A stretch of DNA of 64,000 bases from a virus (taxonomy: Duplodnaviria; Caudoviricetes): the IMG/VR virus record IMGVR_UViG_644736339_000001. One strand, given 5' to 3'. The position numbers were made by a program, and so were the translations under genes. Below, one piece after another: positions 44,233 to 62,638 of this stretch. Under the pieces are notes generated by a model. That model searched no databases. It was not told the DNA's origin and saw only the letters and a program-made list of their open reading frames with translations. Within the stretch, counting starts at the first letter, position 1. Every line of letters starts with the position of its first letter.

Positions 44233-44475
44233 TCAGTTGCAGTACGAGACGTCCTCGGTGTCGGCGCAGGTCTCGCAGATCTCGATCTCCGCGTTGTCGC
44301 GGTTGTCGATGCGGGTGAACAGTTCGGCGGTGGCGTGCCCGCACATCGGGCAGGTGTGGAACTCGTCGGCCTCGACCTCGGCGATAGCGGCGAACTTGGC
44401 CTGGATGACCAGCAGGGCCAGCGCGGAGGTGCGGTTCGCGGTCCGGATGTTGACCTGCTTGGCGATCGTGGTCAT
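44233..44475 (-). CDS. small Zn-ribbon protein
   Basis: CPMCG...CETC; first gene after the promoter. Confidence 0.65.
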   Translation of the reverse strand: MTTIAKQVNIRTANRTSALALLVIQAKFAAIAEVEADEFHTCPMCGHATAELFTRIDNRDNAEIEICETCADTEDVSYCN

Positions 44476-47363: not shown

Positions 47364-47407
47364 CTATGTATACCCCCCATAGCTCCGGGTATGACGGGTG
47401 TACATAG
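47364..47407. promoter_or_regulatory. inverted-repeat operator upstream of HTH gene
   Basis: CTATGTATACCC ... GGGTGTACATAG (11/12 complementary). Confidence 0.65.
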
Positions 47408-47441
47408 CTAGAGCTCGGACGCCCCCAACGAAAGGCACCGC

Positions 47442-47765
47442 GTGATCCCCGACGAACACCTTGAAGCCATTCAGCAAGACGCGCTCCTGGTCACCTACGC
47501 CGCCGGGGCAGTCCACGGCGCATCCATCCTGCTCGCATCAGCACGAGCCAAGGCCGTTGCAGCTCTCGTTGAAGCGTGCGACGGCAACCAGTCCGAAGCC
47601 GGACGTCGACTCGGCGTTGACCAAGCCGCCGTGAACCGCATGGTCCACAAGACGGGCACCTCGCTGGAAGGTGTCGATCTCAACGGACTCGCTGGTCGGC
47701 TCGCCGAGGCAGTCAGTCAGGGGGTAAGTGCCCTGGCGCGGCTGGAAACTGTCGGAGCCGAGTAG
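47442..47765 (+). CDS. small HTH regulator (Aca-like context)
   Basis: RAKAVAALVEACDGNQSEAGRRLGVDQAAVNRMV. Confidence 0.75.
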   Translation: MIPDEHLEAIQQDALLVTYAAGAVHGASILLASARAKAVAALVEACDGNQSEAGRRLGVDQAAVNRMVHKTGTSLEGVDLNGLAGRLAEAVSQGVSALARLETVGAE

Positions 47766-47886
47766 CTGCTGCGCGTCGATGCCCGGCCGACCGAATGGCG
47801 GCCGGGCATTGGTGTATCTGACGGAAGCGGTAACGCGGCCCGTCCGGCGTTGCTATGGTCGAGGCAGCACAACCCCACCTCGGTGG

Positions 47887-47966
47887 ATACTCTCCGCGAC
47901 GGCGGAGGTGGTTCTGATGTGTTGTTCGTTTCAACACTTGCTCTCCGTATCAACGGAGGTACCGCT
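47887..47966 (+). CRISPR. cas-less mini-array: two type I-E-like 29-nt repeats flanking a 22-nt spacer
   Basis: ATACTCTCCGCGACGGCGGAGGTGGTTCT and TTGCTCTCCGTATCAACGGAGGTACCGCT, each with a CTCCG(C/T)-4 nt-(G/A)CGGAG hairpin. Confidence 0.6.
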
Positions 47967-48009
47967 GGCCCCGACCTCCGGGGTTATTGCGCTATCTAGA
48001 GGAGAGCCC

Positions 48010-48249
48010 ATGTACGGCTACGTACCCGAGGATCTCGACAACCAGGTTCCCTCTGAGGGCTCGGACGACGCCTCGTGGCTTGACGACTCCAGCGAGCCCG
48101 TCAGCGCGGGCTTCGAGTGGGTAATCGAAGGTGGACCCGAGATCCTGACTGCGGGCCTGCCGCCGTGGACTGGTGAAACCTGGGGCAACGGAACTGATCG
48201 CTGGGCCCATCTCGAGGCGGGCTGGAATTCGAAGCCGGCCGCCAAGTAG
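48010..48249 (+). CDS. small acidic protein
   Basis: GAGGAG RBS; MYGYVPEDLDNQVPSEGSDD... Confidence 0.6.
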   Translation: MYGYVPEDLDNQVPSEGSDDASWLDDSSEPVSAGFEWVIEGGPEILTAGLPPWTGETWGNGTDRWAHLEAGWNSKPAAK

Positions 48250-49535: not shown

Positions 49536-49906
49536 GTGTCTGTAATGACTTTGCAAGTCAGTGACGTCCGCCACTTGGCCACACCGATGGCGTTTAAGGA
49601 CGCGGCTCACTCTTGACGGCGCCGTGCTCTGCCTATTGAGCTACGCCAGCACGTAGAGCCGGCGATGGGGGTCGAACCCATAACCTCGACGTTCTCGTCC
49701 GCGTCCGCTTGATCCGGCGATCGACGGCGATGCTGAGCATGGAGCGAGAATCTGAACTTCAGTGGTCTCGATGCGCCTCTACCAGTTGGGCTACAGCGGC
49801 CCGTATGCCGCCGGAAGGACTCGAACCTCCACCATCACCGAGCAACCCGTCAGCTTCAGTCTCAACTTCAGCTTGTGCTCGCCGCCGATCCTACCGTGCG
49901 CCGGCC
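49500..49906 (-). ncRNA. structured RNA with two circularly permuted tRNA-like domains (49767-49842 and 49620-49691)
   Basis: Each domain reads T arm, acceptor 3' strand, 6-7 nt loop, acceptor 5' strand, D arm; enclosed by long stems GATCGGCGGCGA/TCGCCGTCGATC and GGACGCGG/CCGCGTCC. Confidence 0.85.
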
Positions 49907-49910
49907 AGCG

Positions 49911-50642
49911 TCACGCGAACAGGTACCCGAACACGTCCTCGCCAACGCGCCGGTCCGTCACCTCGTGGTTGTTGGCCTCCTCGCGGGCGAACTTCACCGC
50001 GTGCGCCAGCTTCTCCACCCGCGCAGCCAGTGCATTAACGCGCTCGGCCGGCAGCGCACCGGAGAACTTCGTCGTGGTCCAGGTGCCGACGGTCACGTCC
50101 TCGTAGTAGACCTCGACCTGCGCCGGGTGCTTCTCAGTGGCCTCGGCCTTCACATGGTTGCGCGGCACCTTCTTGGTGCGGTTGGTCCGCACCGGCTCCG
50201 TCTTCCACGAGTCGGTCGACGGGTCGTGAACCCAGGACTCGGCGGCATCCAGCACCGGCAACTTCTTCACGAACGTGTGCAGGTCCGTCAGCTGCTTCTC
50301 CAGGAACAGCAGGTACGACACCGGCACGCCGGCGATGAGAACCTGGCCGTCGACCATGACGTCGGCGCGGGCTTCGCAGTTCGCCCAGTCCTTCGTCGCG
50401 GTCACGTCGAACAGCCGCGTCATGTTCGCCGATGTGAAGCGCAGGATCTCCTCGGCGCCGATCTGCACGCGCGTCGACTCCGGCGGAAGCTGCTCGCCTT
50501 CCTCGTCCTTTGGCTGGTACGTCCGGGAGATGCCGGACAGCAGCGCCTGCTTCTGGACGTTGTGGTGCGCCTCGGTGATGTCCGCGTAGGAGCGGGACTT
50601 GACCGACTTCTCAACGGCGATGATCTGGTTGAGCTTGGCCAC
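49911..50642 (-). CDS. hypothetical 243-aa largely helical protein, upstream partner of the tRNA-mimic RNA
   Basis: AAGGGA RBS, strong codon bias; MAKLNQIIAVEK...LLSGISRTYQP...KDWANCEARAD...YLLFLEKQL...KFSGALP...KFAREEAN. Confidence 0.9.
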   Translation of the reverse strand: MAKLNQIIAVEKSVKSRSYADITEAHHNVQKQALLSGISRTYQPKDEEGEQLPPESTRVQIGAEEILRFTSANMTRLFDVTATKDWANCEARADVMVDGQVLIAGVPVSYLLFLEKQLTDLHTFVKKLPVLDAAESWVHDPSTDSWKTEPVRTNRTKKVPRNHVKAEATEKHPAQVEVYYEDVTVGTWTTTKFSGALPAERVNALAARVEKLAHAVKFAREEANNHEVTDRRVGEDVFGYLFA

Positions 50643-50685
50643 GACTGTGGGTCCCTTCAGGGGGGCTTGTGGGGATTGACGCAGC

Positions 50686-62328: not shown

Positions 62329-62638
62329 CCTCCGTCACGGCCAGCCGGACAACACGCCCCTTGCCTGCGTCAACCTCGGCCTGGACGCCGTAGGGGAAGC
62401 AGACCCGGAACAGAACCTCGCGCGGGTAGATCATGACCGGCTCGGTGATGTCCATACCCATCCAGCCCCAGTGCGTTGCAGTCGGATCATCGTCGGAGAC
62501 CTCGACAACATCCACCTCGACAATCGGCGCTGACACGCCGTGGAACTCGACATACCGACGGGAGCCCAGGTTGTGCAGGTCGCCGCTGTCGTAGCGGTGC
62601 GCAAACATACGCCAGGTGCCAGCCTCAGTACCGGACAT
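62315..62638 (-). CDS. conserved phage hypothetical protein
   Basis: HWGW...MIYP...VCFPYG. Confidence 0.65.
   Translation of the reverse strand: MSGTEAGTWRMFAHRYDSGDLHNLGSRRYVEFHGVSAPIVEVDVVEVSDDDPTATHWGWMGMDITEPVMIYPREVLFRVCFPYGVQAEVDAGKGRVVRLAVTEVGDA

What the first reader, a model, noticed from the sequence alone, without database searches (positions are those of the whole stretch)
47364..48249. Cas-less CRISPR-repeat pair inside an HTH-controlled cassette: candidate RNA anti-CRISPR (Racr) or mini-array with an Acr-like ORF
Seen: an inverted-repeat operator (47364-47407), a small HTH gene, two 29-nt units (47887-47915, 47938-47966) and an acidic 79-aa ORF with a strong RBS. The two units share CTCTCCG-N6-CGGAGGT and show a compensatory change in the stem (C-G versus T-A). 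The 22-nt spacer is itself a hairpin (GTGTTG/CAACAC). Established: actinomycete type I-E repeats look like GTGCTCTCCGCGCGAGCGGAGGTG..., normal spacers are about 32 nt, and mobile elements carry solitary repeats (Racrs) and acr-aca operons. Inference: host Cas6 could cut both repeats and release a short, structured crRNA mimic that sequesters or mis-assembles Cascade, or that acts as a regulatory guide.
Basis: partly seen in the sequence, partly recalled or inferred. Interest (0 to 1): 0.75.

Follow-up and report, generated by a model that had tools for sequence, protein, structure and literature searches.

The report
Prophage-borne type I-E CRISPR RNA mimic
A large prophage in this actinomycete carries a tiny, cas-less imitation of a type I-E CRISPR array (two decayed repeats around a 22-base guide) that copies the repeat of sister species, not of its present host. 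It is most likely an RNA that decoys or reprograms CRISPR proteins, a phage counter-defence described in 2023-2026, so it is a good new example and not a new principle.

Summary
Two hairpin units (47887-47915, 47938-47966) share CTCTCCG-N6-CGGAGGT and lie 51 nt apart around a 22-nt hairpin-forming spacer. An inverted repeat and a small HTH-like gene lie upstream, and an acidic 79-aa ORF lies downstream.

The units do not resemble the host's own type I-E repeat above chance. They match a second I-E repeat class that forms real arrays in more than 120 actinomycete loci, including four genomes of the same genus. Unit 1 matches that class at 24-25 of 29 positions, including 7 of 8 bases of the 5' handle. 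It is the best match in the whole 10.47-Mb genome.

The locus lies in a ~140-kb low-GC prophage-like island. Arrays of both repeat classes, in the host and in congeners, hold imperfect spacers against this island.

The layout (decayed repeat, short guide, decayed repeat, hairpin) fits viral crRNA-like anti-CRISPR RNAs (Racr/Cracr). No target for the guide was found, and there is no expression or processing evidence. The HTH-control and Acr-like-ORF parts of the reading are unsupported, because both proteins are ORFans.

Verdict: a probable new member of a known kind. This scan has noted similar prophage mimics in at least 15 other genomes.

The parts
47364..47407 (.). Imperfect inverted repeat upstream of the HTH gene. 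It is a possible operator, and its link to the mimic is not shown.
   Evidence: 18-nt arms, 83% complementary. (the 12-mer occurs exactly only in these two arms).
47442..47765 (+). 107-aa HTH-like ORFan.
   Evidence: HTH_37, E 0.0019, below cut-off. (only itself among 5.8 billion clusters). (Atlas model pLDDT 0.81, HTH-type neighbours).
47779..47809 (+). Perfect 11-bp G+C-rich hairpin right after the HTH stop codon. It is terminator-like but lacks a clean T run.
   Evidence: I6, 100% complementary. (it forms in the MFE fold). One search found no consensus terminator.
47851..47859 (+). TGCTATGGT, a candidate extended -10 element 27 nt upstream of unit 1. Read by eye and not verified.
   Evidence: Sequence. 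The sigma-70 consensus scan found no promoter.
47887..47915 (+). Pseudo-repeat 1: a 6-bp stem with a 4-nt loop, followed by a 5'-handle-like GTGGTTCT.
   Evidence: 24/29 to the C. pinistramenti repeat and best of 2.1e7 genome positions. 25/29 to a G007 repeat variant. Covariance model 21.0 bits, E 7.7e-4, top hit of the window.
47916..47937 (+). 22-nt spacer-like guide, 36% G+C, able to form a 6-bp hairpin on its own.
   Evidence: No target found.
47938..47966 (+). Pseudo-repeat 2: same stem geometry with a compensatory T-A closing pair. The stem and cut-site flanks are kept, while the loop and 3' tail have decayed.
   Evidence: Best 19/29 to any real repeat. Covariance model 8.6 bits, E 6, not significant alone. 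Keeping 6 Watson-Crick pairs despite 12 differences has P=0.0018 under random placement.
47966..47989 (+). 8-bp hairpin followed by TTATTG. It is a possible weak terminator of the small RNA, in the same position as the hairpins behind the cas-locus mini-arrays of two congeners (G012, G002).
   Evidence: it forms in the MFE and centroid folds. (comparison with L182 and L169).
47999..48249 (+). Shine-Dalgarno GAGGAGAG plus the acidic 79-aa ORFan (48010-48249). A role in the system is unproven.
   Evidence: no relatives. (pI 4.05, coding-like GC3). (no confident structure).
44363..44394 (-). Protospacer matched 28/32 by a spacer of the C. yoronensis (G012) array of the mimicked repeat class. The 5' flank is AAG.
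62342..62373 (-). Protospacer matched 28/32 by a spacer of a G007 array of the mimicked repeat class. The 5' flank is AGG.

Best explanation
The locus is a cas-less, one-guide imitation of a type I-E CRISPR array carried by a ~140-kb prophage-like element. Its layout is: pseudo-repeat 1, a 22-nt pseudo-spacer, pseudo-repeat 2, then a small hairpin.

It derives from the CTCTCC-class I-E repeat used by other Catenulispora species. It does not derive from the CCCCGC-class repeat of the strain it now sits in.

Inferred mechanism:
- In a host with the matching I-E system, Cas6e cuts 3' of both stems.
- This releases a 51-nt crRNA mimic made of an 8-nt handle (7 of 8 authentic), a 22-nt guide and a 21-nt 3' hairpin.
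- The mimic loads Cas6e, Cas5, Cas7 and the large subunit into a shortened Cascade that cannot support interference.
- It therefore acts as an RNA anti-CRISPR, either by competing with phage-targeting crRNAs or by steering the complex to a promoter that has not been identified.

Shown here: the origin from the repeat, the geometry, the prophage context and the CRISPR pressure on this element. Inferred: transcription, Cas6e processing and inhibition.
For: (a) The motif is real CRISPR.
- The pattern taken from the two units hits more than 120 loci with 61-nt-periodic arrays in Streptomyces, Catenulispora, Actinomadura and others.
- In the host's genus, 4 of 12 other genomes carry 3 to 153 copies, while the reversed control pattern finds 0.

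(b) Unit 1 matches this class strongly.
- It is the single best match in the whole genome to the congeneric repeat (24/29), and 25/29 to a G007 variant.
- A covariance model of 56 distinct repeats ranks it first in the window (21 bits, E 7.7e-4, about 10 bits above the next hit).

(c) The pattern of decay is what a single-guide gene needs.
- Both units keep positions 4-10 and 17-23 (stem plus cut site).
- Unit 1 keeps the handle GTGGTTC. Unit 2's unused tail is decayed (1 of 6).
- Unit 2 keeps six Watson-Crick pairs through a compensatory change, P=0.0018.

(d) A 22-nt guide matches the 21- and 24-nt pseudo-spacers of the prophage I-E Cracr array that is processed by Cascade proteins (preprint 10.1101/2024.10.29.618823, read).

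(e) The context is a phage.
- The genome's only HK97 capsid and portal genes lie 3-9 kb left of the window.
- The low-GC island runs from about 3.225 to 3.365 Mb.
- Neighbouring genes include a polynucleotide kinase/phosphatase plus RNA ligase pair, and NADAR and Ku genes. From general knowledge, such genes have been linked to phage counter-defence or repair.

(f) The element is under I-E attack.
- Five spacers of congeners' CTCTCC-class arrays match the island at 27-31 of 32 positions. Three of these have AAG or AGG flanks; the other two have AAC and CAG.
- Four spacers of the host's own arrays match it at 29-31 of 32 positions.

(g) The predicted RNA 47866-47995 folds into all the expected hairpins (-55 kcal/mol, z = -3.2).
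Against: - There is no evidence of transcription or processing. No RNA run was available, and the consensus scan finds no promoter.
- Unit 2 alone is not significant (E 6).
- The mimic does not fit the resident I-E system. It matches the host repeat at 17 and 15 of 29 positions (chance level). The handle agrees at 4 of 8 positions, by my own count. The Cas6e proteins next to the mimicked arrays in G002 and G012, and the Cas6e-like match in G007, are only 27-32% identical to the host's.
- The guide matches no cas promoter, no host crlRNA and no other sequence above chance.
- The cassette has no homologue in 200 genomes of the order, in IMG/VR or in the metagenome contigs. Conservation across relatives therefore cannot be used.
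- The motif columns of the covariance model are partly circular, because the arrays were found with the units' own motif.
Confidence: 0.5

Rival explanations
1. Functionless relic. The phage once captured the end of a CTCTCC-class array, for example by recombination in a former host. What remains is a decaying repeat, a spacer shortened by a 10-nt deletion, and a degenerate terminal repeat.
For: - Unit 2 scores only 8.6 bits (E 6) and has 12 differences from the consensus. This resembles the degenerate last repeat of an array.
- The units mismatch the resident CRISPR system.
- No target, no homologue and no conservation data exist.
- Other degenerate or orphan repeat remnants exist in this genome.
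Against: - The 12 differences of unit 2 avoid the stem and cut site, and include one compensatory pair (P=0.0018 for keeping six Watson-Crick pairs).
- Unit 1 keeps exactly the part needed as a 5' handle.
- A small hairpin follows unit 2, as in the cas-locus mini-arrays of two congeners.
- The 22-nt length fits known functional I-E pseudo-spacers.
Confidence: 0.2
2. Offensive mini-array. The phage borrows the host's Cascade and Cas3 to destroy or exclude a competing phage or plasmid, as virus-borne mini-CRISPR arrays do in inter-viral conflicts.
For: - The layout is repeat, spacer, repeat on a virus with no cas genes.
- High-GC IMG/VR contigs carry I-E-type repeats of this class with ~32-nt spacers.
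Against: - The guide is 22 nt, whereas the arrays sampled here have a 61-nt period, which means ~32-nt spacers.
- The repeats agree at only 18 of 29 positions.
- No protospacer was found in the host genome (best 17/22), in 31 genomes of the family with up to 3 mismatches, in IMG/VR or in metagenomes (4 low-GC chance-like hits without a PAM).
Confidence: 0.1
3. CRISPR-sensing leader. The mimic is the 5' leader of the acidic ORF. Cas6e binding or cutting at unit 2 changes the leader fold and so switches translation or stability of the downstream mRNA, whose product may be a protein anti-CRISPR.
For: - Unit 2 ends 43 nt before the ATG, on the same strand, with no clear promoter in between.
- In the folded leader, the 5' arm of unit 2 (47940-47946) pairs with the Shine-Dalgarno bases 48001-48007 with probability ~0.68, in competition with the unit-2 hairpin.
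Against: - After a simulated cut, the Shine-Dalgarno bases are predicted to pair with coding sequence instead. Mean unpaired probability rises only from 0.27 to 0.41.
- CTCTCC is complementary to any GGAGAG-type ribosome site, so this pairing may be incidental.
- The hairpin at 47966-47989 may terminate the small RNA before the ORF.
- The ORF has no relatives and no fold.
Confidence: 0.1
4. Not CRISPR-related. The units are two palindromic protein-binding sites (operators) or generic 5'-UTR hairpins that resemble repeats by chance.
For: - Each unit is also a DNA palindrome.
- An HTH gene lies next door.
- G+C-rich hairpins are common: 14,284 hairpins of this geometry occur in the genome, and about 200 of them score as well against the host repeat.
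Against: - Unit 1 agrees with real repeats outside the palindrome too, in the handle GTGGTTC and in positions 4-5 and 22-23. It is the top-ranked position of the genome.
- The palindrome is not enriched elsewhere in the window (11 hits with up to 1 mismatch against 7.5 +/- 2.7 expected, and only the two units are exact).
- The inverted repeat in front of the HTH gene is a different sequence.
Confidence: 0.05

Closest known systems
Cracr arrays: viral crRNA-like regulatory anti-CRISPR RNAs, in particular the prophage CracrIE array of Salmonella (Liu et al., bioRxiv 10.1101/2024.10.29.618823)
   Same: - Carried by a prophage and cas-less.
- Degenerate repeat-like units flank a short pseudo-spacer (22 nt here; 24 and 21 nt there).
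- Type I-E.
- The expected product has an 8-nt handle plus a short guide, giving a complex with fewer Cas7 subunits.
- The paper reports candidates predicted to target CRISPR-Cas loci of Actinomycetota.
   Different: - Cracrs are defined by at least 9 PAM-proximal matches to a host CreR/CreA guide or its promoter target. No such match was found here, in the three CTCTCC-class cas loci available or in the host locus.
- There is one guide only.
- The guide can fold on itself.
- The mimicked repeat class is not that of the resident host.
Racr: RNA anti-CRISPRs encoded as solitary repeat units (RacrIF1, RacrIE1/IE2, RacrIC1; Camara-Wilpert et al., Nature 2023, PMC10651486)
   Same: - Mimicry of the CRISPR repeat hairpin on a prophage, in an intergenic position.
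- Next to small ORFs of unknown function.
- The host carries the same CRISPR subtype (I-E).
- The proposed action is titration of Cas6 and Cas7 into aberrant complexes.
   Different: - SRUFinder requires at least 90% identity to a known repeat and no second partial repeat within 100 bp. Here identity is 86% (unit 1) and 66% (unit 2), and there are two units 51 nt apart.
- RacrIF1 activity did not need the 5' handle, whereas here the handle is the best-kept flank.
Host crRNA-like RNAs (CreR/CreA-type mini-arrays inside CRISPR-Cas loci)
   Same: The CTCTCC-class cas loci of three congeners contain decayed repeat pairs of the same build. In two of them (G012, G002) a hairpin follows. The loci are L182:5735-5824, L183:231-320 and L169:10260-10352.
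   Different: - Those sit inside cas loci and have 32-nt pseudo-spacers.
- Their guides are unrelated to the 22-nt guide here.
- This one is on a phage.
Virus-borne mini-CRISPR arrays used in inter-viral conflicts (from general knowledge: Faure et al. 2019; Medvedeva et al. 2019)
   Same: A repeat-spacer-repeat unit on a virus without cas genes.
   Different: Those have near-identical repeats, full-length spacers and protospacers in related viruses. None of the three holds here.

Membership tests
Racr / solitary repeat unit (Camara-Wilpert 2023) | Located on a virus or plasmid, not next to cas genes | tested here: met
   The capsid and portal genes lie 3-9 kb left of the window. The low-GC island spans 3.225-3.365 Mb. 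The only cas operon lies 1.1 Mb away.
Racr / solitary repeat unit (Camara-Wilpert 2023) | At least 90% identity to a known CRISPR repeat over at least 90% of its length (SRUFinder rule) | tested here: not met
   Against the repeats sampled here, the best match is 25/29 (86%) for unit 1 and 19/29 (66%) for unit 2. The SRUFinder repeat database itself was not searched.
Racr / solitary repeat unit (Camara-Wilpert 2023) | Solitary: no other partial repeat within 100 bp | tested here: not met
   There are two units 51 nt apart, and their 20-nt cores are 75% identical.
Racr / solitary repeat unit (Camara-Wilpert 2023) | Intergenic and downstream of a promoter | tested here: inconclusive
   The stretch is intergenic with a non-coding GC pattern. 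The consensus scan finds no promoter. An extended -10-like TGCTATGGT at 47851-47859 was seen by eye only.
Racr / solitary repeat unit (Camara-Wilpert 2023) | Bound and cut by the cognate Cas6; inhibits interference | not testable with these tools
   Needs biochemistry and infection or conjugation assays.
Cracr / viral crlRNA (Liu et al. preprint) | Pseudo-repeat, short pseudo-spacer, pseudo-repeat, on a mobile element outside CRISPR-Cas loci | tested here: met
   A 22-nt guide here compares with 24 and 21 nt in CracrIE.
Cracr / viral crlRNA (Liu et al. preprint) | Guide shares at least 9 PAM-proximal bases with a host CreR/CreA guide, or matches the cas or toxin promoter | tested here: not met
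   There is no seed-plus-PAM match above shuffled controls in the cas loci of G002, G007, G012 or the host. There is no likeness to the three cas-locus mini-array guides. Only three loci of the class were available, so an unsampled target is not excluded.
Cracr / viral crlRNA (Liu et al. preprint) | Cas-dependent maturation to a handle-plus-guide RNA | not testable with these tools
   No RNA run was listed for this DNA.
Type I-E CRISPR repeat (CTCTCC class) | 29 nt, a 6-bp stem at positions 6-11/16-21 with a 4-nt loop, CT before and GT after the stem, and an 8-nt handle | tested here: met
   Unit 1 meets all of these. Unit 2 keeps the stem and flanks but not the handle.
Canonical CRISPR array | Near-identical repeats, ~32-nt spacers, three or more units, adjacent cas genes or leader | tested here: not met
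   The units agree at 18/29, the spacer is 22 nt, there are two units, and there are no cas genes nearby.
acr-aca operon | A known Acr family, with an HTH Aca encoded in the same operon and an inverted repeat in the acr promoter | tested here: not met
   The ORF has no relatives and no fold. The HTH gene lies upstream, behind its own inverted repeat, and is separated from the ORF by a terminator-like hairpin. No dedicated Acr or Aca library was available.

The most novel reading that the evidence does not exclude
The mimic is a CRISPR sensor and not only a decoy. It forms the 5' leader of the acidic ORF, and the 5' arm of pseudo-repeat 2 sequesters the ribosome-binding site (pairing probability ~0.68). 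When the phage enters a cell that makes the matching Cas6e, binding or cleavage at the repeat hairpins would remodel the leader. This would switch on the downstream ORFan, a possible protein anti-CRISPR, only where it is needed.
Probability: 0.08. Interest if true: 0.8.

Novelty: new member of a known kind. Interest (0 to 1): 0.4.

Why it matters
If functional, this would add a Catenulispora example to the RNA anti-CRISPR / viral crRNA-like RNA class. It has two instructive features.

First, the mimic is tuned to the I-E variant of sister species and not to the variant of the strain it now lysogenises. That would make such RNAs markers of a phage's past or alternative hosts.

Second, the same prophage is matched by imperfect spacers in the host's own arrays and in those of congeners. 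This gives a natural system for asking how a lysogen tolerates self-targeting.

The units fall below the identity and 'solitary' thresholds of the published finder. Decayed mimics of this kind are therefore probably under-counted.

The principle itself has been published, and this scan has noted comparable prophage mimics in at least 15 other genomes. The value is that of a well-documented example and a testable ORFan neighbour.

Tried and rejected
- **Host repeat.** Similarity to the host's own repeat is at chance level: 17/29 occurs about 12,000 times per strand, and about 200 non-CRISPR hairpins of the same geometry score as well.
- **Guide targets.**
  - Host genome: best match 17/22, without a PAM, lying near the right edge of the island at genome 3,368,281. 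Treated as chance.
  - 31 genomes of the family with up to 3 mismatches: none.
  - Seed-plus-PAM scans of four cas regions: no better than shuffled guides.
  - IMG/VR: none.
  - Metagenomes: 4 hits in contigs of 34-53% G+C without a PAM, about what chance gives.
- **Relatives of the cassette.**
  - No DNA match in 13 genomes of the genus or in 200 genomes of the order. Only the Ku gene and the DUF7873 gene with its flank have homologues.
  - Nothing in phage or plasmid records beyond Ku.
  - Both proteins are ORFans.
- **Short-spacer twins of the motif.**
  - IMG/VR: one canonically spaced three-repeat array in a 41% G+C contig, and one coding tandem repeat.
  - Metagenome contigs: none.
- **Known RNA and phage families.** Rfam finds only two tRNA matches elsewhere in the window, and ARAGORN finds three tRNA genes there. 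PHROGs finds nothing for the cassette proteins.
- **RNA evidence.** No RNA holder was listed for this DNA, so nothing could be laid on it.
- **Structure of the acidic ORF.** AlphaFold2 gives pLDDT 54.6 and pTM 0.15, and the Atlas model has pLDDT 0.33. Both are too poor for a fold search, so none was run.
- **N-terminal extension of the ORF.** A start at the ATG at 47917, behind the GGAGG of unit 1, was rejected. By my own count from the sequence, third-position G+C is only about 58% and there are many rare codons.
- **Dispersed phage operator.** Rejected, because the palindrome is not enriched in the window.
Full report
**What is in the sequence**

The region reads, on the + strand:
- an imperfect inverted repeat at 47364-47407;
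- a 107-aa ORF at 47442-47765;
- a perfect 11-bp G+C-rich hairpin at 47779-47809;
- about 75 nt of non-coding DNA;
- unit 1 at 47887-47915;
- a 22-nt A+T-rich stretch at 47916-47937;
- unit 2 at 47938-47966;
- an 8-bp hairpin followed by TTATTG at 47966-47989;
- GAGGAGAG at 47999-48006;
- a 79-aa ORF at 48010-48249.

The two units share CTCTCCG-N6-CGGAGGT and start 51 nt apart. That motif occurs three times in the 10,467,782-bp genome, and two of the three are here.

Each unit is a 6-bp stem with a 4-nt loop. The closing pair is C-G in unit 1 and T-A in unit 2. The full 29-mers agree at only 18 positions.

The stretch between the HTH stop codon and the ATG at 48010 has a non-coding GC pattern by codon position.

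**Which CRISPR repeat do the units resemble?**

The genome has one type I-E system. Its operon encodes a Cas3-Cse1 fusion, Cse2, Cas7, Cas5, Cas6e and Cas1. Three large arrays lie around it at 4.41-4.46 Mb, and their repeat has a CCCCGC stem.

Against that repeat the units score 17 and 15 of 29. This is chance level:
- 17/29 occurs about 12,000 times per strand;
- about 200 unrelated hairpins of the same geometry score as well.

A scan of one genome per prokaryote species with the units' own motif in tandem gave a different result. It hit more than 120 loci made of 61-nt-periodic arrays in Streptomyces, Catenulispora, Actinomadura and others. Their 29-nt repeat has a CTCTCCGC stem and a handle beginning GTG.

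Within the host's genus, four of twelve other genomes carry 3 to 153 copies of the motif. The reversed control pattern found none.

Unit 1 matches the C. pinistramenti repeat at 24 of 29 positions. It is the single best match among the 2.1e7 positions of the host genome, ahead of the host's own repeats. It matches a G007 variant at 25 of 29.

A covariance model built from 56 distinct repeats ranks unit 1 first in the window: 21.0 bits, E 7.7e-4, about 10 bits above the next hit. Unit 2 scores 8.6 bits (E 6), so it is recognisable only through its neighbour. The motif columns of that model are partly circular. The extra agreement in the handle (GTGGTTC, 7 of 8) and in the stem's closing pair (positions 11 and 16) is not.

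**Pattern of decay**

Relative to the congeneric consensus, unit 1 has 5 differences and unit 2 has 12. None breaks a stem pair. Both units keep positions 4-10 and 17-23, which are the stem and the Cas6e cut site of real repeats.

Unit 1 keeps the 3' tail that would become the 5' handle of the product. Unit 2's tail, which no product would use, is decayed.

With 12 randomly placed substitutions, six Watson-Crick pairs survive in 0.18% of simulations. This argues for selection on the hairpins, but it rests on an assumed ancestor.

The 22-nt stretch forms a 6-bp hairpin. That is rare in its shuffles (0.55%) but not rare among real 32-nt spacers (9%). The predicted RNA 47866-47995 folds into all these hairpins, with z = -3.2.

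**Context**
- The genome's only HK97-type capsid and portal genes lie 3-9 kb left of the window.
- G+C is 63-68% from about 3.225 to 3.365 Mb, against about 70% outside.
- The window holds DnaB, DUF2637, T5orf172, NADAR, Ku, TnpB and a polynucleotide kinase/phosphatase plus RNA ligase pair.
- Earlier first-stage notes describe a siphovirus-like element with a conjugation module here. I verified only the capsid and portal genes.

The mimic therefore sits in the accessory part of a very large prophage or phage-plasmid.

**CRISPR pressure on this element**

Five spacers from congeners' CTCTCC-class arrays match the island at 27-31 of 32 positions. Their 5' flanks are AAG, AAG, AGG, CAG and AAC. 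Two of these protospacers lie in the window, at 44363-44394 and 62342-62373.

Four spacers of the host's own arrays also match the island, at 29-31 of 32 positions, with AAC or GAC flanks. All nine protospacers fall inside the low-GC island.

This phage lineage therefore meets both I-E variants, and the present lysogen tolerates imperfect self-targeting spacers.

The Cas6e genes next to the CTCTCC-class arrays in G002 and G012, and the only Cas6e-like match in G007, are only 27-32% identical to the host's Cas6e. The mimic is thus tuned to the other variant.

**How it most likely works**

A Cas6e of the matching system would cut 3' of each stem. The product would be a 51-nt RNA with an 8-nt handle, a 22-nt guide and a 21-nt 3' hairpin. 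This is inference.

It is the design of viral crRNA-like anti-CRISPR RNAs. The prophage CracrIE array of Salmonella has 24- and 21-nt pseudo-spacers between degenerate repeats. It matures in a Cas-dependent manner (expressed with the Salmonella I-E Cas proteins) and both represses casA and competes with crRNAs (preprint read). Solitary-repeat Racrs titrate Cas6 and Cas7 into aberrant complexes.

By the published definitions, this locus fails two tests:
- the SRUFinder rules (at least 90% identity, and solitary);
- the Cracr target rule (at least 9 PAM-proximal matches to a host regulatory guide or promoter).

On the second point, I found no such match in the cas loci of G002, G007, G012 or the host. 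There was also no likeness to the decayed repeat pairs that sit inside those congeners' cas loci. No protospacer turned up elsewhere.

The mode of action therefore stays open between decoy, repressor guide and nothing.

**The flanking genes**

The HTH assignment is weak but plausible. The inverted repeat before the HTH gene does not recur before the units, and a terminator-like hairpin intervenes. 'HTH-controlled cassette' is therefore unsupported.

The acidic ORF looks coding and has a good ribosome site. It has no relative among 5.8 billion clusters or 1.84 billion representatives, and no confident structure. Its Acr status cannot be judged.

One further point: the 5' arm of unit 2 is complementary to the ribosome site and pairs with it with probability ~0.68 in the folded leader. 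A simulated Cas6e cut does not clearly free the site. I keep a Cas6e-sensing leader only as a low-probability, high-interest reading.

**Verdict**

| Reading | Probability |
|---|---|
| The units derive from a CTCTCC-class I-E repeat | ~0.9 |
| Of the possible roles: functional RNA anti-CRISPR or crRNA-like regulator | ~0.5 |
| Relic | ~0.2 |
| Offensive mini-array | ~0.1 |
| Sensor leader | ~0.1 |
| Unrelated operator or hairpins | ~0.05 |

The kind is known, and this scan has noted similar prophage mimics in at least 15 other genomes. It is a new member of a known kind. The points of interest are the mismatch between the mimic and the resident system, and the self-targeting spacers.

Noticed in passing
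Outside the window: genome 3237795-3237826, 3238111-3238142, 3243238-3243269, 3255601-3255632: Four spacers of the host's own type I-E arrays match the resident prophage at 29-31 of 32 positions, with AAC or GAC flanks. This is imperfect self-targeting that the lysogen tolerates.
   Followed up: partly
Outside the window: genome 7997368-7997520 (+): An orphan mini-array of two to three units of the host's own repeat class with ~32-nt spacers, 3.5 Mb from the cas operon, in another low-GC (62-68%) region.
   Followed up: partly
Outside the window: genome 7411779-7411807 (-): A solitary 29-mer matching the Streptomyces-type CTCTCC-class repeat at 23 of 29 positions. No second unit is visible within 200 nt.
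   Followed up: no
L182:5735-5824 (-), L183:231-320 (-), L169:10260-10352 (+): The CTCTCC-class cas loci of three congeners each hold a pair of decayed repeats around a 32-nt guide. In G012 and G002 a hairpin follows. They look like host regulatory crRNA-like genes of the CreR/CreA type.
   Followed up: partly
Outside the window: genome 4427700-4427950 (-), beside the cas operon: A short degenerate array whose repeats grade from the host's CCCCGC class towards a GCGGAGGTGGTACG-type 3' half. This hints that the two repeat classes are related.
   Followed up: no
L202:13704-18656 (-) (genome 4432703-4437655): The host's I-E operon starts with a 1650-aa open frame that joins Cas3 (HD, helicase and C-terminal domains) to Cse1/Cas8e.
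   Followed up: no
window 49572-50645 (-): The DUF7873 gene and about 330 nt of non-coding DNA after it are conserved at 73-81% DNA identity in about half or more of the 200 other genomes of the order that were searched. A second copy lies in this genome at 6,402,176-6,403,219. This bears on another first-stage note about a structured RNA there.
   Followed up: no
Outside the window: genome 9956743-9956771 (-); L141 in G008: The third copy of the motif is a 5-bp hairpin in a chromosomal context that is conserved between the host and G008. It differs at the two facing (unpaired) positions at the top of the stem (G/G in the host, A/A in G008). It is probably unrelated to CRISPR.
   Followed up: partly
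L131, L135, L128, L133, L134 (IMG/VR contigs): High-GC viral contigs carry short I-E-type arrays in which neighbouring repeats belong to different stem classes (CCCCGC-like and CTCTCCGC-like), with ~32-nt spacers.
   Followed up: no
window 47940-47946 and 48001-48007: The 5' arm of unit 2 is complementary to the Shine-Dalgarno bases of the acidic ORF. The predicted pairing probability is ~0.68 in the full leader.
   Followed up: partly
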